Origin: Balamuthia mandrillaris
Lineage: Eukaryota
NCBI GenBank assembly: GCA_031835245.2
Contig: JAVKOQ020000056.1
Location: 124,001 to 188,000 of the forward strand
Length of the DNA: 64,000 nt
Reading direction: 5' to 3'
A program made the translations under genes and the position numbers. Below, piece after piece: positions 42,491 through 64,000 of this stretch. Under the pieces are notes generated by a model. The model was not told the DNA's origin. It was given only the letters and a program-made list of their open reading frames with translations, and ran no database searches. Numbering within the stretch: position 1 is the stretch's first letter; every line of letters starts with the position of its first letter.

Positions 42491-43090
42491 TAGTAGTAGT
42501 AGTAATAAGAAGTTTATTTGCTCTAAGAGCAACACCAATCTTAACAGGAAGTGTTCTCCTTTTTCTTCCTCAGCATTGCATGCTGGGCACTTCTGTCCTC
42601 TTCAGACTGCTGAATGGCTCCCCACTTTTTTCCAATGGGCAGTCCACTACGACAAATAGCATTCATCAATCATTCTTTCCTTGGGTTGGTAATCACTAAG
42701 CTCCGTTGTTGTCCAACTAAACATTTTCCATTTGTCAGGAAGTTATGCCATAGTCATGCTGTTGTTCCTCTTTCTCCTTCAGCTGCAAACTCCACCTTGG
42801 CTACTCGAGTTCTCATCCTCTTGGCTTTCTTTTCAACATCACTTGTCCCTTCACTTCTCTCACCTTCTTTCTTCTCACCTTCCTCTTTCCTTGCTTGGCT
42901 TATCTCTTCAAGTACTACTATAGCTCAAAGTGGCCATCTTGCTTCTCAGCATGGCGAATTACTGCTTGCCTTTCCAACTCACAGTAGGCCTTGATGGTCA
43001 ACCAGCCCAATTCTGCTCTACAAACCCCCTAACTTGCAATACACTTGCTGTCTCATTTCACACAGCTTTGATCTTCTTCTACCTAAAAGT
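42491..43090 (-). mobile_element. Degenerate non-LTR retrotransposon (LINE) 3' fragment with internal deletion
   Basis: The minus strand encodes KCPACNAEEEKGEHFLL (C-terminal CCHC knuckle) and RAELGWLTI, joined to the shared 3' tail GTTGCTCTTAGAGCAAATAAACTTCTTATTACTACTA. Confidence 0.75.
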
Positions 43091-43664: not shown

Positions 43665-44105
43665 CAAGGACAATGGAGATGAAGAACAAGTCAGAAAACG
43701 AATTATAGAAGACTGTACAACAAAGCTCCTGTCAAGTGGAAAGAAATGCAACAGAGCTCAAGAGATGGAGCATTGTAAGCAAAGTTGTAAACAAGTCTGG
43801 AAATTATGGGCAGCAAGAGCAAGTTAGAAGTATGGAAGTTCTTCTGCATTTTATCAATCTTTGGAAGTAATGTAAAAGTAAGGAAATGATAAAAGAGGAA
43901 AAGGGGAAGGAAAGGATAGCTAGATGATACAAAGTTAGTCTGAAAGCTCATTCAACACCTTTCACTTGTAAACTAACATAACAATTGGGAAGGCATTGAG
44001 GATGAGGGAGTAAGAAAAGTAAAAGTACACTATGTATGTATAATGCTTACTTTTTTGTATAGGTTGGTGTTGCTCTCAGAGCAAATAAACTTCTTATTAC
44101 TACTA
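43665..44105 (+). mobile_element. LINE 3' fragment (same family)
   Basis: Near-identical, in inverted orientation, to 54275-54705. Ends in GAGCAAATAAACTTCTTATTACTACTA. Confidence 0.8.
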
Positions 44106-44634
44106 TTCTCTTTGTAGTAGCTTTGGGAAAAACTACCAAAAACTGCCATTTTATGTAGTGGTTTTGCAGCTTTCTCAGTTTGACAACTTCGTTTGACCAA
44201 GTGTGCTAGTAGAGCAAAAAGTACTTAAGTCAGTCCTGCTCCAGATTCCTATAATCAACAATCATACACAGAGGTAGTCAGATCAGCTTCACAAGGGACC
44301 AGATTACTATAGTAAGGAATTCCCCTTCAACAGTAACTAACACAATACAAACAAAAAGGAGAATCTCCTTTTGCTGTTCACTTGGAATATATGGCAAAAA
44401 AAAATATTTTTCAGGTCTTAAAAAAAATATTTTTCTTAAAAATTAATTTTTAGTTAAAAAAATAATATTTTTCCGTTAACAAAAATAATAAAAAAAATGT
44501 TTTTTAATTTCAAAAATATTTTTTATGGTTTGAAAACATTTTTTAAGTTCTAAAAATTATTTTTTTATAAAGCATTATTAAAAGACATTTAATATAAAAA
44601 ATCTACTATTAAACATTAAACAAAATACAAAGAT

Positions 44635-46133
44635 TTATGAATGCTGTTTTTCAAATCTATCTAATTCTGTATAAATTTGAGCTTTGTAAGCAAAAGATAA
44701 TTTGTGATCTGAGGTTAATGCTAAAGGACCCCAAATAAAAGATGCTTAATGTATGTTTTGTGTTTCCTTTTGTAAAAAATAATGTTGACCTCGTTTTGTA
44801 TACCATGATACAGTAGCTTTACGAGGTGTTGTGGAATGAACAAATGCAAGCCAAAAGTCCTCTGAAGAACCATCTTTTGGACAAATAGCATAAATGTGAT
44901 TGGCTAAAATATGGAAAGGTATGCAAGTAGCACAACCAGATGTTGTGACTTGAGATGAAAATTCGATTGAAGAGGAGGAAGCAGCTGAAGTCAAAGAAGT
45001 GGATGCAGAGAATGAAGGAGTATGTTGTCGATTTAAAGTAGTCATAGGTTGAAACAAAGTAAAACAAGGATTATCCAAAGGGAATGAAGGGTGTTGTAAA
45101 TTATAAATCAATGCTTATTCATGAAGTTTGGAAGAAAGCAAGATAGTGGAAAAAGTAGATTGAGTACCTCGAATGCATTCTTCTTCTACACAAGATTTGG
45201 GTATCAAATGAGGAATATGAGTGGAATATAACAATAGATTTGGAAATCCTTTTACCAATGAAATGGGTTTGCTCCAAGGAGCATAAATGTTGGATTTCAC
45301 TTGTAAAATGGGCCATGTTGGACGGCAGGTCATTGTAGGAGTGGGATAAATAAATTTGAAAAATAGAGGTTGGGAATGACCTTCAAGATTTACCATGAAA
45401 GGATGCAACCAACCTTTGAAATCCCAGACCCATTCCAAAGGATGTAATTCTGGATGAGTTTCATCTGTTAAATAAGAAGAGTTAATGAATGTAAAGAATT
45501 GCTCCAAGGTTTCAATATCAAATTTGAGTAATGCTTTATGAAAGGTGGAAAACATTTGATCCACATCTTCATGAGTATGTCCAGGTGGCAAAAAGAACAG
45601 TTTGATCTTGGAAAACATCTTGAGATGCACCAACCAACATAAAAAGGCCAATAAATACTTGTTTTTGTTTTCTTTGTAGCAGTTGTCAGCTTGAAGGTAG
45701 AAGGTTTAGTTGGGATGGGCTCGAAAGGGTTGTTGTAATGTTTGCATAAGAAAGTAAAATAAATGACTGATTACTAAATTGGCATTTCATGACCACTGAT
45801 CAAAATGATAACACAGATAACAATGATGATGCCCATGATCTATTAGTCCGAAACAAGAGACACCGATAAACTTTTTGATGGTCCAGCCTTTTGGGGGAGT
45901 ATGATGATGGGGAAGAGGAATGGCCTCTGTATAATCCATAATGATGGAAATGTATTTGAAAGGAGAGGCTTTGGCTTTAGCATGATGCTTGTAATACTTC
46001 TCTTTGTGTAAACAAACAAAGTGCAAATGATCACTTCGTTCCTTTTGTAAGCCTTGCAATGCCTCCACACTCTTGCATTGTTTAAAACGAACTAGAAGCT
46101 GAGCACATTGATTACATTTTCCTAATCTGGTTT
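44635..46133 (-). pseudogene. Sola-like (DUF7869-type motif) DDD transposase, main exon, with in-frame stops
   Basis: A single frame reads GKCNQC...DHL...YISIIMD...FYLQADNCYKENKNKY...FLPPGHTHEDVDQMFS...WDFKGWL...FWLAFV...VSWY, with four internal TGA/TAA stops and no frameshift. Confidence 0.8.
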
Positions 46134-46183
46134 AACACAGTACAAACAAAAAGGAGAATCTCCTTTTGGAAATTTGAAAGGGT

Positions 46184-48982
46184 TGTAACGGTGATCACGT
46201 CACCTTGTGTTTATTTGTAAGAGGGGATATGTGTGTAACAGTGTAAGTCTCTCTCTCTGTGTGTGAGCATCGTTGCTCACCTTTATATCTTTCTCTTCTG
46301 TTGAGGGTTCTAAGTGATTCTCTCTTGTTTCTCCATGTCGTCATATTCCGTTGTCAATGGTTGGTCACTGCTTGACTCTGATGCAGCTGACTCTATTCTT
46401 GCAGACTTATGTGACGTGTCTGTCAACACCATCACATGCCCTCCCTTAAGGCATGTGTTCATCCTCGAACACTCTTCAACTGCTAACTCCATGACCAAAT
46501 TCTTAGCTTCCTTGCCTTGCTCGATGGGCTCTGCACTCTTCTTCTCGTCATTCTTGTCACAATTGGGCTCTGCACTTGTTTCTTTCTTCCTTCTGTCGTA
46601 TTGATTGGGCTCCACGCTTATCTTCTCTCCTGGGTTGTTGTCTAATTCCATCCTTATCATCTCACTCTCGTCCGTTCTCGTTTTTCCAGTGTTGTTTTGT
46701 TCGGGATCTTCCGTTGTGATGTCTTGTCTGCTCTTGCCGTCATTTTCCACCTGTTTTCAGTTCTCTGCGTCTTCTGGATACATTAAAATGCAACAAAAAT
46801 CCTCATTCCTCTGCAGTCGTGGTCCATCTTTTCTTTTTCAGCTGCTTTTCTCATCCATGCTTTCTCCTCTCCTCCTTCTCTCTCAAGGTGCTTCTTCCAT
46901 ATTCATCTGTGTTGACCTTCAATCATTCTCTAGTTCACAGTTGTGGGTACTAACATCTCTTTTCTTCCCCTCTCTGCCGTCTAAGAGAGCTCGTCCTCAA
47001 GCTTTCTTTCCTTCAAAGCGTCTCCGACATCAAAACGGCCTCCTACCTAAGCCAACAAAGCTCCAAGGAATCCGCCCAGAGTAGAACTTGTATGGATTCG
47101 TATACAGCTTCTTCATGTTTCTCTTGAGTTGTTGTCGATTACTCCACAACGTCAGTCATCTCCCAACACGCCGGAAAGGCGGACCACTGGCTCCGCACCA
47201 GTGTATTGCTGGGCACCTGTGTCCCTCACTTGGCTGCTCTGCAGCTGTGCGTACAACTGGTCCAGGTGTGGCAAGTCCTTTCTCATCGTCCTATCCCACG
47301 TCGAAACTAACACGTAGGGACTCAGCAATGTCACTTTTTCGCATCGCTATACTGCTTGACTCAGTCTCATCTAGGTCGCTGGTGGCATTATCACCATTCC
47401 GGTCCTCCATGTCATCGCGGTCAATAGTTATGTCCTCGTTGATTGACTCCTCTCTGCTGGCATTCCTTAGCAGGGGTGGCGACCCTGAAGGTTGCTGCAT
47501 TAGCGGCTGTGGCTCCTCTAATGGCTGCGACTCCTCTTGTTGCTGCTGCTCATCACCAGTAGGCTGCGGTAGTAGCGCTGTCAACTCCTGCCTTAACTGA
47601 CGGGTGGCCTGCATCAGGGCTTGCATTTCCGCAAAGAGTTCCTTGAAGTCTGCGTAGCTGCTATGTTGCACCGGCAGCTTCTTCTCTGGCTGCAGGGTCC
47701 ATTCCCACGTTGGTTGCAGGGGGAATGGTGCAGAGGAATGTCCTTTCGAAGAATGTGGTGTAGAACGCTGTAGTGGCTTCCTGCATGATGGCTGCTGTTG
47801 CGGGACAAGCTGCGATGATGAGTGCCGTGGTGGCGCTGTTTGCTCAAGGCCGAACTGTTGGGGACAGCGCTTCGGCAGGGCTTGCCTCTGCAGGGTAGTC
47901 TCCTCGGGGTAATACTCTAGCAAAGAGGGCTGTGATGAGGCAGTCCGTCATGTATCATGCTGTGGCCTTGAACACCGAGAATGGCTCTTGGTCGACAACT
48001 GAGGCAGATGGTGACTCTGCTCCAATGCGATTGGTTTGTATGCTGAGCGAGGTTCTCATGAAGGGCCTGCAAGCACAGTAGTGTGGTAGTCATCCTTGGA
48101 GAGGTAGTTTAGGGGATAGTCGCTATAAGCGTCCTCACAGCGGCATCTCCTAAGCTCGTAGCCCGGTGCGTCATCGCTGTAAGCGTCCTCACAGCAGCGG
48201 CGTTCATAACCGTTGTCTGGGACACCGTTGTTGTAAGCGTCTCCACAGTGGTGGCATCCCTACCCTTCAAACCAGCACTCATCCTCGAGGGCCTCCTCTG
48301 GCGTGGGCTGCTGAGGCACATCGTAGAGGGCCACATTGCAAGCGCTTCTGCGTTCCCTTCATAGCTTCTGCTTCCTTGGCTGCACGGCTGAGACTGGCGA
48401 TGCATCCGAGGAGTGGTAGCTACAGCGTCCATTGAAGTCGTAGATGTCATACATGATAGCAAAAAAAATATCAAACAAAATGGGTTATGATGATAAAGCC
48501 AAAACCACTCGAATCAAATCAAAGGCTAGCCGGTGAGGCGTAGCTGTACAAAATCAAATCAAAAATCAAACGGCCACATCACACAAGACTGAATCCCAAA
48601 CAAAAAAAAACACCACACAATCTGCTAAGCCACTTGCACAGACGAAGCAGGGCGAACGGAAGATTGGAAAACAACACTCTGATGGTTCAGTCACCCAAGT
48701 ATTAGGATGACTACTCCGATGTCGCCACTTGTAACGGTGATCGCGTCACCTTGTGCTTATTTGTAAGAGGGGATATGTGTGTAACAGTGTAAGTCTCTCT
48801 CTCTGTGTGTGAGCATCGTTGCTCACCTTTATATCTTTCTCTTCTGTTGAGGGTTCTAAGTGATTCTCTCTTGTTTCTCCATGTCGTCATATTCCGTTGT
48901 CGATGGTTGGTCACTGCTTGACTCCGATGCAGCTGACTCTATTCTTGTAGACTTATGTGACGTGTTTGTTGACACCATCACA
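46184..48982 (-). mobile_element. Non-autonomous LTR retroelement (no recognisable pol)
   Basis: 253-bp TG...CA direct repeats at 46184-46436 and 48730-48982, TSD GGGT. On the minus strand, a PBS-like TGGCGACATCGG follows the 5' LTR and a polypurine AAGGGAGGG precedes the 3' LTR. Confidence 0.92.
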
Positions 48983-49239
48983 GGGTAAAAAATATTTTTT
49001 TAAATCATTTTCCAAAATCAAAAATAATTTTTTTTCTGAAATTTATTATTTTATGAAAATTAAAAATAATTTTTTATATCAAAAATAATGTTTTTTTATT
49101 ATATAACAAAAAAATAATATTTTTTTCACTTTTGTCAAAAAAAAATTAATTATCACTGTGTGGATACATCTCTATATAAAAGATGTAACTTCTCATTTGA
49201 GAATAAAAGTATAATTTTTTCTAATCAAAAAATATCAAA

Positions 49240-52200
49240 AAATTACACTTCAACTCTCTCATATAGCGCGCTCCTTGGCTTACTGCTAAGGTCACTTCGC
49301 TATTTGTTGTGTTTTTGGTGCTTGTTTCAAGCCCTTCCTTACTCAGAACTTATCTGAGACACGTGTGCTGTGGACTCAGCTACTCCAGTGGCAAAGAAGA
49401 GGATAAAAAACGTTTCGATGACTTATGCCATCAGAAGAGCAAACTGATGGAGATGATCAATTAACTGACCGCGATTTGCAAAGAAGAAAACGAGCCACTG
49501 TTCCAACTGCACTCGAATCTGCCTTTGCAACTTCCGGTTAACACTCTGTCAACTCCTTATGTTTCTCCCAAGGGTGTTACCTCTGCAGGTGCTGCTGTGC
49601 CAAAGGTGGTGAAACCTCTGCCTGCTGTGTTCTCCTCCAAGCATTTCTCGCTTTGCTCTGCCACGGAAACTTCTGAGGCTGGCTCCTTGTCTGAGAGTGG
49701 TTACGCTGAACCCTCAGCACTGGGCCATCCAGAACCTTCATCACCCGAAATGGCCTTGGGATAGGCTCATAGCCACCTTCCACGACCACTTTGGCAGCAG
49801 AAACCTGCAGAACGTGCTGCATACAGAGTTCTGTCACTTCTCCTTCAAAACCAGAGAGTAGTGGCAGTGTGCACGCAGCGAGCAGCAGGAGCCATGTGGG
49901 ATATGTTGGGACAAGTGAAGGTCAATGTGTTGGGATCGAACAAGTAGAGATCATTCAAGAATTCTCAGAGCATCGCCTTGGAACACGAATCCGCCTTGGA
50001 AGCCCAAAGCAAGAGAAAGCCCTCGAGACTTTTCCCTCCGAGCAGCTTGAACCACAACAAGGGGACCAAGAACAGCAAACCTTGGTACTCTTTTCACTGT
50101 ACGCACAGTCATTCGGACAAGGACTGCCGAGTCCTCTCCAAGAAAAAGAGTGATGGATCCTCCTCCTCTTCCTCTTCTTCTACACCTGCTACCTCTTCTG
50201 GTGCTCCTCAAAGACCAGCTGGCGTCTGCTACAAGTGCGGTAAGGCGGGACATATGGCAAATCATTGTCCTACTCATGGCACTTCTGCTAAGCCTCCAGC
50301 TTCTTTGCTTAACAGCATGCAGTCCCCTGTGACTGGTGTTTCTCTGGCTCCTCCTTCTGGCAGTGCAGCCTTCCCTTCTCCTTTTCCGGCTACTCCTTCT
50401 TTAAACAACATAGAAGAGAATCCCTTTCAGGAGTTTGAGCAAGCTGCAGCAGAGCTGTTCATGCTTGGTCTTGACGATCATGAAGCTCCTGCCTTCGATA
50501 ACCCCTCTCCTGCTCCTGTTGCTGCTCCTATTATGGTTCCGGCAACCTTGAACAAGCAAAGAGTTAGCAGGGTGAACACCAGCACCTCCTCTTCCTTTGT
50601 GGATCCTTCCCTTGTGGAACAGTTTCACCTCAAAACGACCCACACTCAACAGGATGTGGTTCTGGGAGATGATTCCTCTGCCTCTGTGTCTGCCGTTGCC
50701 TCCCACATTCGTGTGGCGTGTGGTACTCGGAAGTTCTTCCACAACTTCCTCATTCTCAAGCTCTCTGGTTCTACTCAAGTGATCTTTGGCCAAGACATCC
50801 TTGATAGGATAGGCATTGGTCTGTTTGGAATTCCGGTCCGCTTCCCTGGCCCTAAGCCTTCAGCACCAGACAATAAGAACATTGCTTCTTCTGATAAGTA
50901 CGTAGAGTCTCCTTTGCCTCCAGAACTTCAAAAGGCCATTGTAGACCGCATCAAGGACCTTCTTGAAGAGAACAGCGTATTCCTCAAGGTCCTTCCTGTC
51001 CGCTTCCAGAAGGGACAATCCGTTTGGATACCAGAGATCACCCTCTGATATTCAAACATCAGTATCCTATACCAGAAGTCTGGCATTCCTCCATCAATGA
51101 GCAGCTCGAAGAGTGGTACCGCCACAAGGTTATTGTGGATGCTCCCATGGACTCGCCATGGAATTCGACCATTCTTTGCGTCCCTAAGAAGGATGCTAAT
51201 GGCAATTGGACTTCAGCCTGTACCTGCATTGATCCATGAGCTATCAACTCTATCATTGTGGATATCCACTTCCATATTCCTAGTATCCTTGCTGTCATAG
51301 AGTACATCCTTGGCTTCCATATCACCAGCTCACTAGATTTAGTGTGGAGCTTCATGCAGCTTCTAATCTTTGTGCCTCACCAGATCAAGCTCACCTTCAC
51401 CTGGTGAGGGCGCTGCTACTGCTTTCGTGGAGCTCCCTTTGGGGTGAAGATCGTTCCGGCCACTATGCAGCGTCTCCTTGCCCCTGTGCTTAAGGACCTC
51501 GCTGACTGCACCGCACACTATATTGATGATTGCCTCAACCAAGCGAAGCTTTCCAATGTGCTCATCAATAGAGGCAGAGCGGGAAAAGATGTGCGACCCT
51601 TTTGGAACAAGAACTGCGATGAAGCTATCAGTGCCCTTCACCGTATCCTCAGCTCTCCTCTGGTTCTGAGCAAGCCGGACCCCAGTCTTCCGTTCCTTGT
51701 TGGTACCGATGCTTCCCAATATGGCGTTGGTGCTGTGCTCTATCAAGAGTCTGCTGATGGTATTCGCCGTTATCTTGCCTTTGCTAGCCGTGTCCTCAAC
51801 TCTGCTCAACGCAACTATCCTGCCACGAAATGTGAGCTTCTTGCTGTGGTCTTTGCCCTCCACCAGTTCCGCTGTTGGCTGTGGGGTCGCCGCTTTACCT
51901 TGTTCACAGACCACAAGGCCTTGTCGTATCTCTTTACGGCCAAGCATTCTTCTTTCATGCTTAATCATTGGGCTTTCTTGCTGCTCCAGTTTGACTTCAA
52001 CATCATCCACCAGCCTGGTGTTCAGATGGTCTTGGAAGATGCGCTTTCCCACCTCTACCAGCCCAACTTTTGGGAGGAAGATGGTCTGGCTCCACCAGTA
52101 GTTCCAAACGAAGTCAAAACCTTGGCTCTGGTAAAGAGGCAACGCAACATTCCAAGAGTTCCTTCCTTGTCCATGCTTGACGTCTCTCAGCACCCTCCAG

Positions 52201-53863
52201 TTGCTCCGTCAAGAGAACTCATCTGTTACATCAAGCTGTTTTTGGACAAAAAGGCCCCTTCTTTCATGGAAGAACAACAGGAGTTACTCTCCCGCCTCCA
52301 TCTCGCTGGCCATGAAGGTGCTGCCAATCTCTTCAACAAGGTCTGGAACGAAGGTTTCTTCTGGCCTTCCCTTCAGGCTGATTGCTTCGCTACTACCCAT
52401 TCGTGTGATGCCTGCCTTTGTTTCAACATTGCCAGGCATGGTTTTCATCCTCTGAAAACCATCTCCACCACTTTTCCCTTCAAACACATTGCCTTGGACC
52501 TGTTTGGCCTGCTCGCCACCGATGAATCTGGTTTCTGTTATGTTTTGGTGGTCACCAACATTGCCACCAGGTTTACCCTTCTCCGCCCTTTGGTTAACAG
52601 GACAGTGGCTGCTACCACCAGTGCCTTCTATGGGGTCATATGCAATTTTGGCTTTCCCAAGATTGTACAGTCAGACAACGGCTCTGAGTTTGTCAATGAG
52701 ACCATGGCTACTATCAAGGCTATCTCTGGCTTCGACCACAGATTTATTGCTGCCTATCACCCGCGAGCCAATGGTGCTGCTGAGGCCCATGTCAAGCTTG
52801 CCAAGTCCGCCCTAATGAAGCTGGTCTCTTCCGATTGGAGTCACTGGTCCACCTTCCTTCCAGCTGCCCAATTTGCGATCAATCAAAGGCTGACCTCCAG
52901 GCATAAATTGACTCCCTTTAAGCTCTTTCTTGGACGCCCTGTCAACCTTCCGAGTGATTTTTCCAACGTGGAATCCAATCCCCTTCCTGAGGCTGACCGC
53001 CTTGCACAAATTGCCAAGTTGCATTCTGTTGTCTGGCCTGCTGCTTTTGATGCTACTGACCTCTACAACCAGATTGTGTCTGTGACGCATGACTCTTCTG
53101 TTTCCTTATTTGAATTCAAGCCAGGTGACACTGTTATGCTTCGTCATTCTGCTGCCACCTCCAAGATGGATCCGAAGTATCTCGGCCCCTTCTCTGTCAA
53201 ACGCAGAACCAAGAGTGGTGCATATATACTAGTGGATGTTACTGGCAACGAGTTGAAAGATCGTATTCCTCCTTCTCTTCTTAAGCTAGTTCCCCCTCTC
53301 CCTTCTGGTTCCTTGATACTCCTATCCTCTACTCCAGTTCTTCCTGATAAGACCGATTTGGAATCTCAAGCCGACCCTGATGCTTCTGATGATGTTAATT
53401 CCAAGTCTGATGATGATAACAATGATGATTACTCCAAGTCCTACGAAGTTAGCAAGGTGCTAGACCACTGTGGACCTGCCAACCGCCGAGAATACAAGGT
53501 CAGATGGAAAGGCTACTCTCCTAAGTACGACCTCTGGATTCCAGTCAAGAACTTTGATGATCTTCGACCTGTCAATACCTACTGGAAGAAGCTTTGTTTG
53601 AAAAGGGGGTGATGTTGGAAAACTCCAACATAATAGCCCTTCTTCTCTTCCTGTCGACCTCTCCCTCATGCCTGTCAACCTGAGGAAACCTCTTGGTGTC
53701 CAACTTCTCCTTTCTTGAACTTCTCCTTTCTTGTTGTTTTCTGTCTCTGCCCTTTTATGCTGATATTCTCTGTTCTTCTTTTTTGGATAATTGTTCTAGC
53801 TTAAATACTGCCTCTCCTTGCTTCTTCTTCTTCTTCTTTTTCCTCTCAGGACAACTTACAACA
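49240..53863 (+). mobile_element. Ty3/Gypsy chromodomain-bearing LTR retrotransposon, degenerate, 5' LTR not seen
   Basis: Gag knuckle CYKCGKAGHMANHC, eroded protease, RT (SPWNS, HYIDD, partly deleted), RNase H (TDASQYGVGAVL), integrase (H..H..C..C, SDNGSEF, NGAAE), chromodomain YEVSKVLDH...YKVRWKGY. PPT AAAAGGGGG, then putative LTR TGTT...AACA ~53614-53863. Confidence 0.92.
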
Positions 53864-54274
53864 AAACACAAGATACTTTACTATCACTTGTACTCTTCAC
53901 TTTTAGTAAATTAAGTTCAAGTCTCATACTTACTTTATCTCCACCATCATTCCTGTTCTTATTTTTTATGACAATTTATCCATCAAATTATTGTACTTAT
54001 TTATTGTAATATATGTAATGAGCTGCGCCATACAGCGCAGCTCTGTTTGTTTTTTCAATATTTTATTTTTTTTCCAAAAAATTTATTTTTGTTTATTAAA
54101 CAAGAAAATCAAAAATATATGATAAAATTGGTGAAGAAACTATTCAATGATACCAATTTGATAACTAAAGGAAAAGAACTTTATTTGAGTGAAGAAAAGA
54201 GAGAAGAGAGAATGGGAAAGGTATATGGAAGAGTGGTATAACAAATAAATTATTTCAATATCAAAAAGTGTTTA

Positions 54275-54808
54275 GTAATAAAAGTTTATTTGCTCTGAGA
54301 GCAACACCAATCTATACATAAAAAGTAAGCCTTGTACATACATAGTGTACTCTTACTTTTCTTACTCCCTCATCCTCAATGCCTTCCCAATTGTTACTCA
54401 ATTCACAAGTGAAAGGTGTTGAATGAGATTTCAGACCAACTTTGTATCATCTAGCTATCCTTTTCTTTCCCTTTCCTTTCTTCTCTTTTCCTTGCTTACA
54501 TTACTTCCAAAGACTGATAAAATGCAGAAGAACTTCCATGCTTCCAACTTGCTCTTGCTGCCCATAATCTCCAGACTCGTTTACAACTTTGCTTACATTG
54601 TTCCATCTCTTGAGCTCTGTTACATTTCTTTCCACTTGACAGGAGCTTTGTTGTACAGTCTTCTATAATCAGCTTTCTGACTTGTTCTTCACTTCCATTG
54701 TCCACACTCCAGATTCTAAAGCGATCTTCCCAAAGGTTAGGACACCTTAACAGGAAGTGTTCTGCTGTTTCTTCCTCAGCATCACAAGCAGGGCACTTGC
54801 TATCCTCC
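54275..54808 (-). mobile_element. 5'-truncated LINE insertion with 14-bp TSD
   Basis: TCAAAAAGTGTTTA at 54261-54274 and 54809-54822. Encodes KCPACDAEEETAEHFLLRCP...VWRLWAAR and carries the shared 3' tail. Confidence 0.88.
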
Positions 54809-55317
54809 TCAAAAAGTGTTTATATTCATAATTTATTTTCAATATAAATATTTAAAAAAATAAAAGAATATATTGTAAATATAGTTATTTTTGTGTTTAT
54901 TATTTTTTTTTTGAAGGAAAAAATAATTTTGGAAATAAGAAAACCTTTTTTTTATTCTTTTTATAAAATGAAAAATAATATTTTTGTGATAGAAAAATAA
55001 TTTTTTTAAGGCCCCAAAAATAATTTTTTTTGCCATATAATCCAAGTGTGAAGCAAAAGGAGATTCTCCTTTTTGTTTGTACTGTGTTGTTTGCTAATAC
55101 AGAAAGCTTGTATAAGAGGGTATTGGCTGTGCTGTATGACCCAAGATCTGCCCTTCACAATGAAGGTTGCTAAATTCTTTGTTGAAAGGAAAGGGCACTT
55201 TTGCATCGTATGACGCACTCAACACTCTTGCTTGCTAGAAAAATTTGAAAAAATTTGCTTTTCATTGGATAGGAAGGATAGCCAATGCCTTTTATACAAT
55301 AGTAGAGAGAGCTGAAG

Positions 55318-56208
55318 AGGACTGATTTGCACTGCACAGCCTAGCCAATGCCAGCCATACAAAAGAAAAGAGAGCAGAAAAGGGCTAATCTGTGCTGTAT
55401 GGTGCAGCTCATGCCTGCCATACAAAAGAAAAAATTGTGGAAAAAGGCTGATCTGCACCGTACAGTGCAGCCCATGCCCCTCATACAAAAGAAAAGAGAG
55501 TGGGAAAGGGCTGATTTGCACCATATAGTGCAGCCAATGCCTGTGAAACAAAAGAAAAAATTGAGGAAAAGGGCTGATCTGCACTGTACAGCACAGCTCA
55601 TGCCTGCCATACAAAAGAAAAAATTGTGAAAAAAGGCTGATCTGCGCCATATGGCGCAGCCTATTCCTGCCATACAAAAGAAAAAATTGTGGAAAAAGGC
55701 TAATCTGCACCATATGGCGCAGCCCATGCTTGTCATACAAAAGAAAAGAGAGCGGAAAAGGGCTGATCTGCGCCGTATGGTGCAGCCCATGCCTGTCATA
55801 TAAAAGAAAAGAGAGCAGAAAAGGGCTGATCTGTGCTGCACAGTGTAGCCAATGCTAGCCATACAAAAGAAAAGAGAGCAGAAAAGGGCTGATCTGCGCC
55901 ATACAGCACAGCCCATTCCTGCCATACAAAAGAAAAGAGAGCAGAAAAAGGCTGATCTGCGCCATACGGTGCAGCTCATGCCTGCCATACAAAAGAAAAG
56001 AGAGCAGAAGAGGGCTGATCTGCACTGCACAGCGTAGCCAATGCCAGCCATACAAAAGAAAAGAGAGCAGAAAAGGGCTGATTTGTGCCATACGGTGCAG
56101 CTCATGCCTGCCATACAAAAGGGTTGATCTGCACTGTACAGTTGATGCCAGCCATACAAAAGAAAAGAGAGTGAGAAAGGGCTGATCTGCGCCGTACAGT
56201 GCAGCCAA
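55318..56208. repeat. Tandem array of ~15 units, 63-bp period, each with an 18-bp palindrome and an A-rich tract
   Basis: Unit consensus GGGCTGATCTGCGCCGTACGGCGCAGCCCATGCCTGCCATACAAAAGAAAAGAGAGCAGAAAA. Unit starts at 55384, 55447, 55510, 55573 ... 56077. Confidence 0.93.
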
Positions 56209-56690
56209 CGCACTAGTCTCAAAATTTGAATGCAAGCAAAAAAACAAAAGAAAAAGGGATAATGGCATAGCAATGCTGGTCTCTCTTTCAAACAAAATGC
56301 AGGTTGAACAGATTTGACAACTGAGAACAATACAAACCGTTATGCCTCACAGTCCTTTCACAAGTTGAACTCAAAAGAAAGAATTATGAGGTTGGATGTA
56401 AGAAAGCACATTCAAGCCCCTTTATTATGGGAACAAAAAGCTTTCAAATTTCCTTTAACTTGCTGTCACTTCTTCCAGCACCATATCAGCAATGCTCTCT
56501 GTCATTGGTTGTCCTCCACAAAGTCTGCAGCAAATCACAGCGATTTGACTACCAATTAAACGAAATTCAAAAGAAAAAAAAGAGGGCCAAAAGCAAAACA
56601 AACTCCCAAAATTTTAGTTTGTCACAAAAGTGCACAACCATTCACACTGTTCACACATATTCCTTGCTTTTTATTTTTGCTGTTGTGGTT

Positions 56691-59600
56691 ATGTCGGACA
56701 ACAAGAGATTGACAGTGAAAGAACTGCGGCAAAGGATCGAGGACCTCAGTGGACAATGGATCACCAAGGACTCCAAATCTGTCTTATCGCACAAATTGCA
56801 AGTGCTACAAACTCCTACGTCAAATCCTTCTTCCAACCAACCATTGGACCTCTCGGAAACAGATGAAGGCTCATCTTCCTCCCCGTCCAACAGGTAAAAC
56901 AACTTCAAGCTATCACTATGAAAGGTTTGTGCTTGTATTTTTGTGTTATAGTCAATGACTGAACGGCCACTATTCGCTTTGCTTCTTTCTTCCTCAAGAG
57001 AGAAGGGCCAGTCCAGCTCCATCCTACTTTTGCCCTTTCTCTTCTCTCATCCAAATTATTATTTGAAGGGATGGTGTTGACTGCACTGTACAGCACAGAT
57101 CAGCCCTTCAGCTCATTTGCTGCACCAAACGGCACAGTTCAGCCCTTCAAATCCTCTAGTACTTTAGAAGGGAAATCATTGGCTGCACCATATGACGCAG
57201 CTTAGCCCTTCAAACCTCTGGTATTTTTGAAGGGTGTTGGCTGCGCCATATGGCACAGATCTGCCTGAAAGATCAACACTTTCCTTTTATAGTTTGGGTG
57301 ATGATTGCGCCATATGGCACAGATCACAACTGCTGCCTTAATTTCTTGTTTGGCTGGCAAGAAAAGGTTATAGGCTGCACCGTATGACGCAGCTCATGCC
57401 TTTGGCCTTTTTCTCTCTTGTTGACTAGTTGAAGGGCATTGGCTGTGCCATATGACGCAGCGGATACCCTCCACAGTTTTTCTTTTAACTTTGTACTGTC
57501 ATTAACTTCTTATGTTTTATCAGGTTGGCATTGACCTCAGACCAGAAGGGTTGAATAAGCTGCTGGCCACATTCAACTCAGGTGGCATTTTGTCTTTTGA
57601 TGAACACTCTTCTTTATTATTGATGGAAATGCCCTCAGCTCTGTGGGTGCATCCAGAAAGCAATCAACAAGAATATGTATATCTTGGAGGTAACCATCAA
57701 TGTGCAGCAGCCCATGTATTGTACTGTGAAAACTCTCCAAAGCTGAAGGAGTTAACTTGGAGGGCCAAAGTGCTGCCATTTAATGGCAAACAACTTCCAA
57801 GTGTGGCTGTCTTGGACAAGGTACAATACCTTGGAGTTTTATGTTGTTTTTTCTGTTTTTTAACACGGTGACTTACTCATATTTCTTGGAAGTTGTCTGC
57901 CTGGGACAACCTGGTGTTGTCCGAAGGAGTCAATCAAGAGACAGAATGGGATATGGTCTGTTTTGTGTACAATCATCTCACAAAAACACCAGAGGAGCTG
58001 TTACATTATCTGGTAGGATGGTCCTTCTTTGGTTGCAGGCAAGCTCTGAAATGATTGCTCATTTTCTCTTTTTTGTGTTGGAGAGGAGGGGGTTTTGTAT
58101 TTTAGAATTCACAAACTGCCTCCCAAGATGCCCATAATGCTCTCACCTTTGATCATGTTCAATGTTTGAAAACAGTGGCAAACAAAATGCAGAAATTCCC
58201 AGAGTCTTGGAGTTATATTCAGGAGAAGGACAAAGAAAAGGGGGGCTGGGTGTTTACTCCTTATCACTTGAGAGAGAAAATGCCAAGCTCCTTATCAGAT
58301 GAAACCTTGTTGGCAGCCTTGAAAGAGATATGGGCAAGGCACCTTGAGGATCCCAAGGAAGAATGTTCTGTAACCATCATGAGATGGTTTTGGTGAAGGA
58401 GGTGGAGAGGATTGAGGTGTAGTGGTGTTTGAGTGGAATGGAGGAGAAGCTGGTTCATCAGAGGGTATGTATTGCTACCAGCAAGGAATGAATAAATGAA
58501 TGAAAGATAGCTATTGAAAGGAAAAAAAAAAGAAAAGCAAAAAACAACAACCAAAGACCTCTTCCAAACACCAGGCCAAAAAAGCAAAAAACCATCATCG
58601 TGGCAGACCCAAACTCAACACTCCTCCTCAACCCTCCAAACAATTGGCCCACCAACTCAACAAATGGGGAAAGGATGTGCTTGCTTCTCATTCCCCTCCT
58701 ACCAAGTTCAAAGTGAACATTTATGATAATTTACCAACACATGCTCCCTTGATGCTTGATTCCTTGGGAGTACACTGCCAAAGTAAGTCTTTTTTGGGTT
58801 ATTTTTTCCAAAGAACTCAGATTGCTGTCTGTCTAATTTTCTCTCATTCTTCCCAGACCATTATGTGGAAAGGGTTTTGTTGATAACTACCCATTATAAT
58901 CACTTGCACTTGGCCATGAATCAAATCAATGCCAAAAAACAAAAGCAACATCAGCTTTTGATTAACTTGAAGCTAGAAACAGTTCTTGTTTTTGGGTACA
59001 AACCTCACCATTCCAAGCATAACAACAAACCACAATGGTGTGAGAATGGCATGTTTGTGGCAGTGTGGAACAAAGGCCAAACATAGTTGCAGGATGATTC
59101 TAGTTCGATTACTTCTTCTCTTGTTGGCCTTGGAGACATGGCAACCAACTTCAGTGGTGATTCCAATCAAGGGACCTCAAGCTCAGGAAGGACAAGTGGC
59201 TGATCAGGCGAATCTCTCTTCTTCTCCTGTTCCTCCTTTAAATGTGTATCATTATTTGCTGAACACATTCACAGAGCCTAAAGATGTGGTGTTGGCCTTT
59301 AATTCCACAACAGGTTGTTTGCCTGCAGTTTGTTTGGAAAGTAAGTTCATCCTTTTGTTTTTCCTTTCCTTGTTTCTTTTGGTAATGAACTAAAACATTT
59401 ATAAATGTTAGCAATGCGTCATTTTGTGGCCTTGTTTCCTGGTTCTAGAGCCACAAACTTAGCAGAGCATGCAAAATTATTAGCAACCACTGTGTTGGAT
59501 AGAAACAAGGTGCAAAAAGGCTTAGTTGCTTGGAAGAAAAAACAAAAAGTTCTGAAAGAAGATTTAGTACCAAAAAATGCAGATGATGAAGATGATGAAG

Positions 59601-59926
59601 TTCCAAAAGATAGTAATCAATCTGAAGAGGAAGATGAAGAACTTCCAAAGCTTACCTCCAAAAACCACAAAAAATCAAAAGCACAACAAAATGAAAAAGA
59701 AAAAAGTAAAGAAGTAGAAGTAGAAGAAGAAGAAGAAAAAGAAGGAGAAGAAAAAGAAGGAGAAGAAGAAGAAGAAAAAGAAAGAGAAGAAGAAGAACAA
59801 GAAGATACAGAAAGTAAAAAGAACAATAATAATAGTGATGAGGATTTTTCAGATTCTGATAGCAACACATCTTCTCAATCAACCAAATCAAAAAAAGATA
59901 AAGGAAAAGACAAATTAGACAAATAA
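56691..59926 (+). pseudogene. Transposon cargo gene: SAP/HeH-like, ParB/Srx-like, degenerate N6/N4 DNA methyltransferase-like, charged tail (multi-exon, disrupted)
   Basis: MSDNKRLTVKELRQRIEDLSGQWITKDSKSVLSHKLQ; YVYLGGNHQCAAAH; PLNVYHYLLNTFTEPKDVVLAFNSTTGCLPAVCLE|TMRHFVAL; E/K-rich tail. GT-AG introns, several stops and frameshifts. Confidence 0.5.
57075..57465. repeat. Seven copies of the same palindrome separated by divergent spacers
   Basis: GCTGCRCCRTAYGRCRCAG-like copies starting ~57081, 57120, 57183, 57241, 57305, 57375 and 57443. Inverted relative to the 63-bp array. Confidence 0.85.
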
Positions 59927-60106
59927 ATTCTGTTTTTGAAATATCAACTTTCAAACAACAATAATAAAAATGTTTTCTTTAATATTTATAAAATACTATG
60001 CTATTCATATAAAAAATAATTTATGATTTTCCTTATTAAAAAAAATTTGAAAAAAAATTATTTTTGATTTTGGAAAAATATTTAAAAAATTATTTTTTGC
60101 CTTTTC

Positions 60107-60600
60107 CTCTGCCACCCATAGCTTTCTTGCCACCACGTCAATATACACATTGAATAAGAAGGGAGACAAAACTCCTCCTTACTTAACTCCTCTTTCTACT
60201 AGGAATTCCTCAGAGAGTTGCCCATTCATGCAAATGACACTTGTCATACCACAGTACCACTCTGCAATGATGCTCACTGCTGCCTCTTCTGCTCCTCTTT
60301 TGCGCAATGTCCTTGCCAGTATGTCATGGTCAAGCATGTCATATGCCTTGCTGATATCCAACAGAGCAATATAAGTATGTTCTTTGCTTCTCTTCATCAG
60401 GCATTTCTTCAACTGCCACACTTAATCCATGACTCCTCTTCCTTTTCTAAATCCGCTCTGGCAATCACTTATCCACCCTTGCTCTCTTGCTTGCATATTC
60501 AACTGCACCAAGATAGCTCCCTCAAACACCTTGGCTGCGTTGCATAAGAGGGTAATTCCTCTATAATTTGCTGGGTTCTGCTATCCCAAATTCTCTTACT
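60107..60600 (-). mobile_element. LINE reverse transcriptase fragment (pseudogene)
   Basis: PANYRGITLL, LLDISKAYD.LDH, ERGVK*GGVLSPLLFNVYID. Confidence 0.88.
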
Positions 60601-63385: not shown

Positions 63386-63435
63386 GGAAGAATCATTTTA
63401 AGCCTTGGTGTGGGAGCTGCTTCAGGTAGAAGAGG

Positions 63436-63606
63436 TAGTAATAGTAATAAGAAGTTTATTTGCTCCAAGAACAACACCAATCTATACATAAAAAGTAAAC
63501 ATTAGTACATACATAGTGTACTCTTACTTTTCTTACTCTTTCATCCTCAATTGTTATAATGGTTCACAAGTGAAAGGTGTTCAATGAGCTTTTAGACTTA
63601 CTTTGT
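63436..63606 (-). mobile_element. LINE 3'-UTR fragment (same family as 54275-54808)
   Basis: Matches 54273-54447, including TAGTAATAAGAAGTTTATTTGCTC..GA.CAACACCAATCTATACAT. Confidence 0.85.
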
Positions 63607-64000
63607 AGGTAGAAGAGTTTGAAGTTGCTGCTTTCTTGAATCCATTCCAAAGATCTTTTTCTTGTCTTCCCTGGAACTTTCCTGAGCCTAGAACTTAAGA
63701 ACCAAGAAACCAAGAAGTTACTCGCTTAGGCTTCTGCCTTTGAAGACAAGCTTGAATTCCTATGGATGTGCATGCTGTGTACTCCATTTAACTACAACCC
63801 CAAAGTGATCTTTCTCTTTTGAACTTTCTTGAAGAGCGACTTTCAGAAAGCAAAAATATATTTAATAAACAGAAAAGACCATTTGTAAGTGTGTTTTTGT
63901 TGCTTGTTGCTTTTCATGTGTTTTTGTTAAAGGGAAGTTATTTGTAGTTGAGAAGGCAACCAAGGAATGAGGCTTGGGATTGAGAGTGATAGTTTCTCCA

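What the first reader, a model, noticed from the sequence alone, without database searches (positions are those of the whole stretch)
55318..56208. Palindrome array with an exact 63-bp period (six helical turns): candidate parS-like or transposase loading platform
Seen: about 15 units, with twelve consecutive starts exactly 63 bp apart. Each holds the CpG-rich palindrome CTGCGCCGTACGGCGCAG (consensus) and an A-tract. The array lies upstream of the splice acceptor of the transposase main exon. Known: 63 bp is about 6 x 10.5 bp, and ParB proteins load at arrays of short palindromes. Inference: helically phased binding sites for a dimeric element-encoded protein, possibly the ParB-like cargo, with binding potentially sensitive to CpG methylation. 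The alternative is a set of RNA hairpins in an intron.
Basis: partly seen in the sequence, partly recalled or inferred. Interest (0 to 1): 0.78.

Follow-up and report, generated by a model that had tools for sequence, protein, structure and literature searches.

The report
Palindrome arrays inside an amoeba transposon
A broken DNA transposon of the amoeba Balamuthia carries tandem copies of an 18-base palindrome beside its two genes and in an intron; they are likely binding sites for one of its own proteins (one is a predicted ParB plus methylase-like fusion), which would help it resist silencing by host DNA methylation.

Summary
The array is real: 15 palindrome units, 13 of them 63 bp apart, none matching the consensus exactly because the CpGs have decayed. 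It lies in a multi-copy, here broken, Sola-like (DUF7869) DNA transposon of Balamuthia mandrillaris. The same motif forms a second, unevenly spaced cluster of 7 in an intron of the neighbouring accessory gene, and occurs once in a nested sister element with unrelated flanks. This copy has lost the transposase's first 207 codons; contigs of other copies indicate that the array lies upstream of the transposase start, between two divergent genes, not inside its intron. The accessory protein is predicted to join a ParB/Srx-like domain to a beta-class DNA-methylase fold with degenerate catalytic motifs. Helical phasing is unsupported (4 of 10 non-array spacings, P=0.2), and so is selection for RNA hairpins. 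Best reading (0.45): clustered binding sites for an element-encoded protein that switches on or protects the element, like VANC/VANDAL and TnpA/Spm in plants but built from unrelated parts. Binding, expression and methylation were not shown.

The parts
55318..56208 (-). Main array: 15 units of a 63-bp repeat, each with the decayed 18-bp CpG palindrome; oriented like the transposase
55118..55220 (.). Two degenerate copies of the motif (cores at 55127 and 55201)
57062..57475 (+). Second cluster: 7 motif copies, spacing 39, 63, 58, 64, 70, 68, inside an intron of the accessory gene (GT at 56925, AG at 57523)
   Evidence: exon join read from NCBI-annotated copies P0001/P0007; also visible in the translation of another locus, P0011
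54020..54043 (.). Single motif copy (16 of 18 core bases; 10 of 12 pairs in a 24-bp palindrome) in nested sister element B, with flanks unrelated to the array units
44339..44374 (+). Left terminal inverted repeat of host element A (about 35 bp, with an internal hairpin)
44794..46133 (-). DUF7869 (Sola-like DDD) transposase, main exon, with in-frame stops
   Evidence: Pfam PF25273 E=6e-42; tblastn of P0012; invariant aspartates
46134..55088 (.). Nested sister element B with the same terminal repeats and a 4-bp target duplication GTTT (46130-46133, 55089-55092), inserted 5 nt into the transposase exon; itself holds two LTR elements and a LINE end
   Evidence: varied flanks behind 55088 in 8 contigs
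55089..55110 (-). First 5 nt of the transposase main exon, acceptor AG (55095-55094), 16 nt of intron end, and the likely deletion point 55109/55110 where the first coding exon(s) were lost
   Evidence: (loose end before 55110 in one contig of each of two runs)
56691..59926 (+). Accessory gene: predicted ParB/Srx-like domain (about 57524-58018), helical middle part, predicted beta-class N6/N4 methylase fold (about 58680-59470) with degenerate motifs, acidic tail; broken by deletions, a frameshift and a short inversion
59927..60107 (+). Right subterminal remnant of element A (78% like the left end of B); the terminal repeat is missing

Best explanation
The palindrome is likely a DNA recognition site of this transposon family, multiplied by tandem duplication into clusters near both of the element's genes, where an element-encoded protein would bind and keep the element expressed or unmethylated. 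Shown: the array, the second cluster, the copy in sister element B, the CpG decay, the multi-copy element with terminal repeats and a 4-bp target duplication, and the two neighbouring genes. Predicted: a ParB/Srx-like domain and a methylase fold in the accessory protein, and a winged helix in the transposase. Inferred: that the array lies upstream of the transposase start; that the host methylates these CpGs; that the binder is the accessory protein (about even odds against the transposase), with the likely inactive methylase fold reading the CpG-rich site; and that the outcome is activation or anti-silencing. The 63-bp period is likely just the length of the duplicated unit.
For: Sites occur only inside the element family: all 16 matches in the window lie between 54023 and 57460, 0.01 expected. 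Between the two clusters the core is 65 of 70 identical at non-CpG positions, the next 10 bases 50 of 70, outer flanks 34 of 98 and 44 of 98. Sister element B, 78% like A at its ends and otherwise unalignable inside, keeps 16 of 18 core bases. Both clusters are non-coding and each points along its nearest gene. Transposase and accessory gene have consecutive accessions at three other loci. CpG observed/expected falls from 0.74 in the gene-rich part of the window to 0.07 in the accessory gene. Atlas structure hits: ParB_N, TM 0.60-0.67; N6_N4_Mtase or MT-A70, TM 0.56-0.60, two rows being ParB-methylase fusion clusters. A profile of 14 phage methylases scores the four accessory copies 6.7-15.7 bits against at most 2.4 for 29 controls. 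Precedent: VANC21 binds motifs in tandem repeats in introns, intergenic and terminal regions of VANDAL21 (PMC5735166, passages); Spm TnpA needs dense motif clusters (10.64898/2026.08.24.746577, section 4); Acanthamoeba methylates CG in repeats (PMC12344493, passages).
Against: No binding, expression or methylation data. Inside the main array the core is not measurably better kept than the rest of the unit (5 of 110 against 31 of 440 non-CpG changes, P=0.52). The between-cluster comparison is inflated because sites were picked by likeness to the core. B is a single case. Pfam finds neither ParB nor methylase in the accessory protein; the Atlas feature score for the methylase part is only 0.83 and its model is poor (pLDDT 0.42); profile-profile probability was 27%. 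The CpGs of the sites decay freely in this copy, which shows no protection here, though this copy is dead. The start-codon placement rests on 26-30 letters from one contig in each of two runs.
Confidence: 0.45

Rival explanations
1. The sites load the transposase itself and act as an internal enhancer of end pairing or cutting, not of expression.
For: The transposase model has a winged helix at residues 133-210 (best Z 6.8). The non-coding sister element B keeps one site, as a cis-need for mobilisation would predict.
Against: The main array lies about 2.0 kb from the left end and 3.9 kb from the right remnant. The terminal repeats share no sequence with the palindrome. The clusters track the two genes, not the ends.
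Confidence: 0.15
2. A neutral minisatellite that arose around a chance palindrome and was carried along by the element.
For: Units differ by 13% at non-CpG sites on average; no excess conservation of the core within the array; other contigs show deletions that cut into the array (table 5).
Against: It does not explain the second cluster with different spacers and opposite orientation, nor the copy in B with unrelated flanks.
Confidence: 0.13
3. Binding sites for a host dimeric transcription factor, forming the enhancer of a bidirectional promoter that methylation shuts off.
For: Position between divergent genes and in an early intron; palindromic and CpG-rich.
Against: No site in the first 54 kb of the window, which holds host genes; an 18-bp core with a kept 3' flank is long for a host factor (own knowledge).
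Confidence: 0.12
4. RNA hairpins in a 5' leader or intron that control splicing or give small RNAs.
For: Each cluster is oriented along its gene, several units of the second cluster can form an outer stem, and each main unit has a pyrimidine run and an acceptor-like end on the minus strand.
Against: No compensatory pairing (145 of 198 pairs against 143 in shuffles, P=0.40). No bias to G.U-preserving changes (21 against 20 in the main array; 7 against 14 in the second cluster). Mean folding z of -1.2 to -1.8, alike on both strands. No Rfam family near its threshold. These tests are on a dead copy and so are weak.
Confidence: 0.1
5. A parS-like, helically phased platform for ParB that partitions or tethers excised elements.
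For: Predicted ParB/Srx-like domain with a GNHR motif; 63 bp is 6.0 turns; the two degenerate sites to the left are 74 and 126 bp apart, near 7 and 12 turns.
Against: 4 of 10 spacings outside the run of 63s are within 1 bp of whole turns, P=0.2. No ParA-like gene and no ParB helix-turn-helix found. Single-base deletions occur in array units of other contigs (table 4).
Confidence: 0.04

Closest known systems
VANC / VANDAL21 anti-silencing system of Arabidopsis (PMC5735166, passages; PMC10398659, abstract)
   Same: A DNA transposon with an accessory gene and a short motif multiplied in tandem repeats in intergenic and intronic DNA, in a host that methylates transposons.
   Different: Sola-like rather than Mutator-like transposase; an 18-bp CpG palindrome rather than a 8-9-bp asymmetric motif; the accessory protein is a predicted ParB plus methylase fold with no Pfam match; anti-silencing is not shown here.
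Spm/CACTA TnpA and its motif clusters (10.64898/2026.08.24.746577, abstract and section 4)
   Same: Dense clusters of a CpG-containing motif in a transposon, read by an element-encoded protein.
   Different: TnpA sites sit at the termini and TnpA derives from a transposase; here the clusters are internal and the accessory protein looks prokaryotic in origin.
Sola superfamily DNA transposons (PMC10741241, passage; original description not held)
   Same: DDD triad, 4-bp target duplication, terminal inverted repeats, length in the 2-9 kb range.
   Different: A second gene and internal palindrome arrays are not part of the description I read; no tree against reference Sola elements was possible.
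Phage and bacterial ParB-N6/N4 methylase fusions (PMC4738411, passages; Atlas rows)
   Same: Order of domains: ParB/Srx-like part, then beta-class methylase fold.
   Different: Here spliced, inside a eukaryotic transposon, with degenerate catalytic motifs; the eukaryotic cases in the passages I read are a haptophyte clade and a chlorophyte/chytrid Dam with a ParB helix-turn-helix.
ParABS (parS) partition systems (recalled)
   Same: Repeated palindromes of similar length near a gene with a ParB-like domain.
   Different: No ParA, no detected helix-turn-helix, different sequence, eukaryotic transposon.

Membership tests
Sola superfamily | DDD catalytic triad | tested here: met
   D275 in 26 of 26 rows with a residue, D310 and D352 in 32 of 32; catalytic role inferred
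Sola superfamily | 4-bp target site duplication | tested here: met
   GTTT on both sides of sister element B; not testable for A, whose right end is missing
Sola superfamily | Terminal inverted repeats, element mostly 2-9 kb | tested here: met
   35-bp repeat at 44339, 46134 and 55088; 6.8 kb of A remain without nested inserts
Sola superfamily | RNase H fold of the catalytic domain | tested here: inconclusive
   Foldseek gave nothing; the wide search was filled by the winged helix; the folded record lacks part of the domain
Sola superfamily | Placement in a tree with reference Sola1-3 transposases | not testable with these tools
   No Repbase sequences held
VANC/VANDAL system | Motif in tandem repeats in non-coding parts of the element | tested here: met
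VANC/VANDAL system | Mutator-type transposase and VANC-family protein | tested here: not met
   Transposase is DUF7869; accessory protein has no Pfam family and points to ParB and methylase folds
VANC/VANDAL system | Protein binds the motif and lowers methylation | not testable with these tools
   No binding or methylation data
Spm/TnpA system | Motif clusters at the termini | tested here: not met
   Clusters lie 2 kb or more from the ends
ParABS | ParB/Srx N-terminal domain | tested here: met
   Atlas structure rows TM 0.60-0.67, four named ParB_N; predicted models only; Pfam negative
ParABS | ParB helix-turn-helix that reads parS | tested here: inconclusive
   No Pfam hit; the helical middle part was not searched by structure
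ParABS | ParA or other partition NTPase gene | tested here: not met
   None among the element's frames scanned; this copy has deletions
   4 of 10 spacings outside the run of 63s, P=0.2
Beta-class N6/N4 DNA methylase (PF01555) | Fold and motif order | tested here: met
   Atlas TM 0.56-0.60; own profile 15.7 bits against 2.4 for controls
Beta-class N6/N4 DNA methylase (PF01555) | Catalytic motif IV (DPPY type) | tested here: not met
   The matching place reads DNLP in 4 of 4 further copies; alignment by eye
Beta-class N6/N4 DNA methylase (PF01555) | SAM-binding motif I (FxGxG) | tested here: inconclusive
   In register the motif is degenerate; hhalign instead pairs it with a later FPGSG stretch of P0066 across a gap
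Known structured RNA (Rfam) | Match at the gathering score | tested here: not met
   Best 27.9 bits against a threshold of 107

The most novel reading that the evidence does not exclude
An amoeba transposon captured a phage-type ParB-methylase fusion, let the methylase go dead, and turned it into a sequence-specific anti-silencing factor: the methylase fold reads the CpG palindrome, and the ParB domain acts as a nucleotide-gated clamp that loads at the arrays and spreads along the element. It would be an anti-silencing system evolved independently of plant VANC and TnpA, with a physical route for spreading.
Probability: 0.12. Interest if true: 0.88.

Novelty: new variant of a known kind. Interest (0 to 1): 0.55.

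Why it matters
How transposons escape DNA-methylation silencing is worked out mainly in plants. A Sola-like element in an amoebozoan with motif clusters and an accessory protein of prokaryotic build would show that the strategy arose again from different parts, and would give a first role to a ParB-methylase fusion in a eukaryotic transposon. The Atlas also lists unnamed cnidarian, mollusc and sponge clusters and fungal DUF3723 as look-alikes of the ParB part, so the pairing may be wider. If the array is neutral, the accessory gene is still an unreported passenger as far as my searches reach.

Tried and rejected
No whole genome is held for the window. Expression: no RNA holder listed; two RNA runs of the same species label gave 0 and 1 reads in 12.9 million records each, with no positive control, so no test. 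The joint across element B and a host-gene control for the RNA runs remain untested. Coding repeat: two minus-strand frames are nearly open, but synonymous changes are not favoured in any open frame; rejected. CHG methylation: 8 of 121 against 13 of 143 CHH, P=0.50; rejected. Paired-motif scans: 5 metagenome hits, all unrelated minisatellites, simple repeats or bacterial REP-like repeats; 0 in viral contigs; 0 in prokaryotic genomes. No DUF7869 loci in viral contigs. Accessory protein relatives outside Balamuthia: none by sequence (two weak hits are repeat proteins). Single-sequence fold of P0007 failed (pLDDT 35). No PDB sequence match; one weak unannotated phage hit, E=0.1. Foldseek on the transposase model found nothing. 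An N-terminal SAP/HeH-like motif was recalled but not found by Pfam. The bacterial promoter scan was uninformative. Earlier findings of this scan: none. The original Sola paper is not held. No complex prediction was sent.

Full report
Observation. Tandem Repeats Finder reports 55280-56121, period 63, 13.4 copies, 80% matches, no indels. Palindrome cores start at 55327, 55390 and on to 56083 in 12 steps of exactly 63, then at 56129 (truncated unit) and 56187: 15 units. A search with up to 3 mismatches finds 16 sites in the 64 kb against 0.01 expected, all between 54023 and 57460. No unit equals the consensus; one (55642) is a perfect palindrome. Decay is mostly CpG to TpG or CpA: 35 of 88 CpG positions in the 11 full units, against 8 of 121 CHG, 13 of 143 CHH and 8 of 286 A/T positions, five sub-family columns left out. 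Contigs from two runs show other versions: of the 40 difference rows displayed (174 not shown), 10 fall in cores and 9 of these go to the consensus base; one contig restores the site at 57375 fully. This shows the ancestral state, not selection.

Setting. Homologous proteins are named Balamuthia mandrillaris by NCBI. The array lies in a DNA transposon, A, that starts at 44339 with a 35-bp terminal repeat and carries a DUF7869 transposase on the minus strand (Pfam E=6e-42) with three conserved aspartates. A sister element, B (46134-55088), has the same terminal repeats, a GTTT target duplication and ends 78% like those of A; it is inserted 5 nt into the transposase main exon. These features fit the Sola superfamily as described in PMC10741241 (passage); a tree was not possible. 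The element is multi-copy: 974 and 373 contigs of two runs lay on 55040-57900 at a range of identities, and transposase and accessory gene have consecutive accessions at three other loci.

Where the array sits. The first 207 residues of the transposase of other copies have no match in the window (best E=0.65). One contig in each of two runs leaves the window's sequence at 55110; on the minus strand the 30 letters shown end in GCCGCCA, which would be followed by the start codon (the codon itself is not shown). So this copy likely lost its first coding exon(s), and in whole copies the array likely lies upstream of the transposase start, 483 bp from the accessory gene's ATG at 56691.

More copies of the motif. 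Seven sites at 57081-57460 lie in an intron of the accessory gene (56925-57523; join read from P0001 and P0007), in the opposite orientation, so each cluster points along its gene. The translation of another locus, P0011, runs through the same cluster. Against the main consensus, these seven keep 65 of 70 non-CpG core bases, 50 of 70 in the next 10 bases, 34 of 70 in the 10 bases before, and 34 of 98 and 44 of 98 further out; the core figure is inflated because sites were chosen by core likeness. Element B holds one site with 16 of 18 core bases in otherwise unrelated AT-rich DNA. Within the main array alone the core is not better kept than the rest (5 of 110 against 31 of 440, P=0.52).

Phasing and hairpins. 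Eleven of 71 periods from 30 to 100 bp lie within 0.5 bp of a whole number of turns. Of the 10 spacings outside the run of 63s, 4 lie within 1 bp (74, 126, 63, 64), P=0.2. Some contigs have single-base deletions in array units, while two diverged contigs span two to three units without gaps. Phasing is therefore neither needed nor supported. For RNA structure there is no compensatory change (P=0.40), no bias to G.U-preserving changes, similar folding on both strands and no Rfam match near threshold. These tests are on a dead copy.

The accessory gene. Pfam and PHROGs give no firm family (one weak phage methyltransferase hit, E=0.007). The Atlas model of P0007, residues 105-260, matches ParB_N proteins at TM 0.60-0.67. 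The Atlas model of P0011, residues 425-630, matches N6/N4 methylases at TM 0.56-0.60, two rows being clusters of ParB-methylase fusions, though the feature score is 0.83 and the model is poor. A profile from 14 phage methylases, the only ones among 75 loci that passed my motif filter, scores the four accessory copies 15.7, 10.8, 7.4 and 6.7 bits, against at most 2.4 for 20 shuffled, 4 reversed and 5 unrelated proteins; hhalign gives E=0.0007 but only 27% probability. Motif IV reads DNLP, and motif I is degenerate in register, so the fold is likely inactive (alignment by eye). The transposase model has a winged helix at 133-210 (Z up to 6.8, below the level the tool calls distinctive), so there are two candidate binders.

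Mechanism. CpG observed/expected is 0.74 in the first 42 kb and 0.07 in the accessory gene, and the related Acanthamoeba methylates CG in repeats (PMC12344493, passages; Balamuthia is not mentioned). In Arabidopsis, VANC21 binds a short motif multiplied in tandem repeats in introns, intergenic and terminal parts of VANDAL21 and removes methylation (PMC5735166, passages; PMC10398659, abstract), and Spm TnpA needs dense motif clusters (10.64898/2026.08.24.746577, abstract and section 4). The layout here is the same, with unrelated parts. I commit to clustered binding sites for an element-encoded regulator (0.45). Rivals: transposase enhancer 0.15, neutral repeat 0.13, host factor 0.12, RNA hairpins 0.10, parS-like 0.04.

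Novelty. DUF7869 occurs in 0 papers of the library; searches on Sola with palindromes and ParB, on Balamuthia transposons, and on ParB with eukaryotic methylases listed nothing on this element (listings only, plus passages of PMC4738411). The supplement of PMC4738411 has 390 mentions of ParB, of which I saw two, and none of Sola or Balamuthia; it may hold related eukaryotic fusions. PMC5751038 and PMC5199201 were seen as passages and the Starship/DUF3723 papers as a listing only. The parS consensus and methylase motif names are recalled. No relative with the motif was found outside this species. Verdict: a real feature, a new variant of a known kind, function inferred; interest 0.55.

Noticed in passing
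window 42493-42604, 43668-44105, 54273-54790, 63435-63607: Four 3' ends of one LINE-like element; the same piece sits in the accessory-gene intron at another locus (P0011), so it may favour these elements.
   Followed up: partly
window 49948-53612: Ty3/Gypsy-type element with zinc knuckle, RT, RNase H, integrase and chromodomain, nested in element B.
   Followed up: no
window 46183-48986: LTR element with 254-bp LTRs 97% alike and a 4-bp target duplication, inserted about 50 bp inside the end of B.
   Followed up: no
window 44352-44372, 46147-46168, 55054-55075: The terminal repeat contains a perfect 10-bp hairpin of its own.
   Followed up: no
window 58367-58474: Segment inverted relative to another copy (P0069), with neighbouring coding sequence missing.
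   Followed up: partly
window 56905: Contigs of other copies continue with other sequence here; an exon present in P0001 and P0007 is missing from this copy.
   Followed up: partly
window 55318-56208, minus strand: Each unit has a pyrimidine run followed by an acceptor-like end; possible cryptic splice sites.
   Followed up: no
window 54117-54239: Short open frame in element B downstream of its palindrome and of an intron-like T-rich stretch; possibly a gene remnant.
   Followed up: no
P0007 105-260 (Atlas): Feature look-alikes are unnamed cnidarian, mollusc and sponge clusters and fungal DUF3723 (31% of one cluster), taxa that overlap those of DUF7869 hits.
   Followed up: no
P0014: The best non-Balamuthia DUF7869 hit is a transcript-derived protein of the amoeba Thecamoeba quadrilineata.
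   Followed up: no
window 15342-39851: Host genes: pseudouridine synthase, condensin II HEAT subunit, DUF4215 repeat protein, HSP20.
   Followed up: no
L002 9329-13270; L005 40-781: Bacterial REP-like palindromic repeats around a short nuclease-like frame; unrelated to the finding.
   Followed up: no
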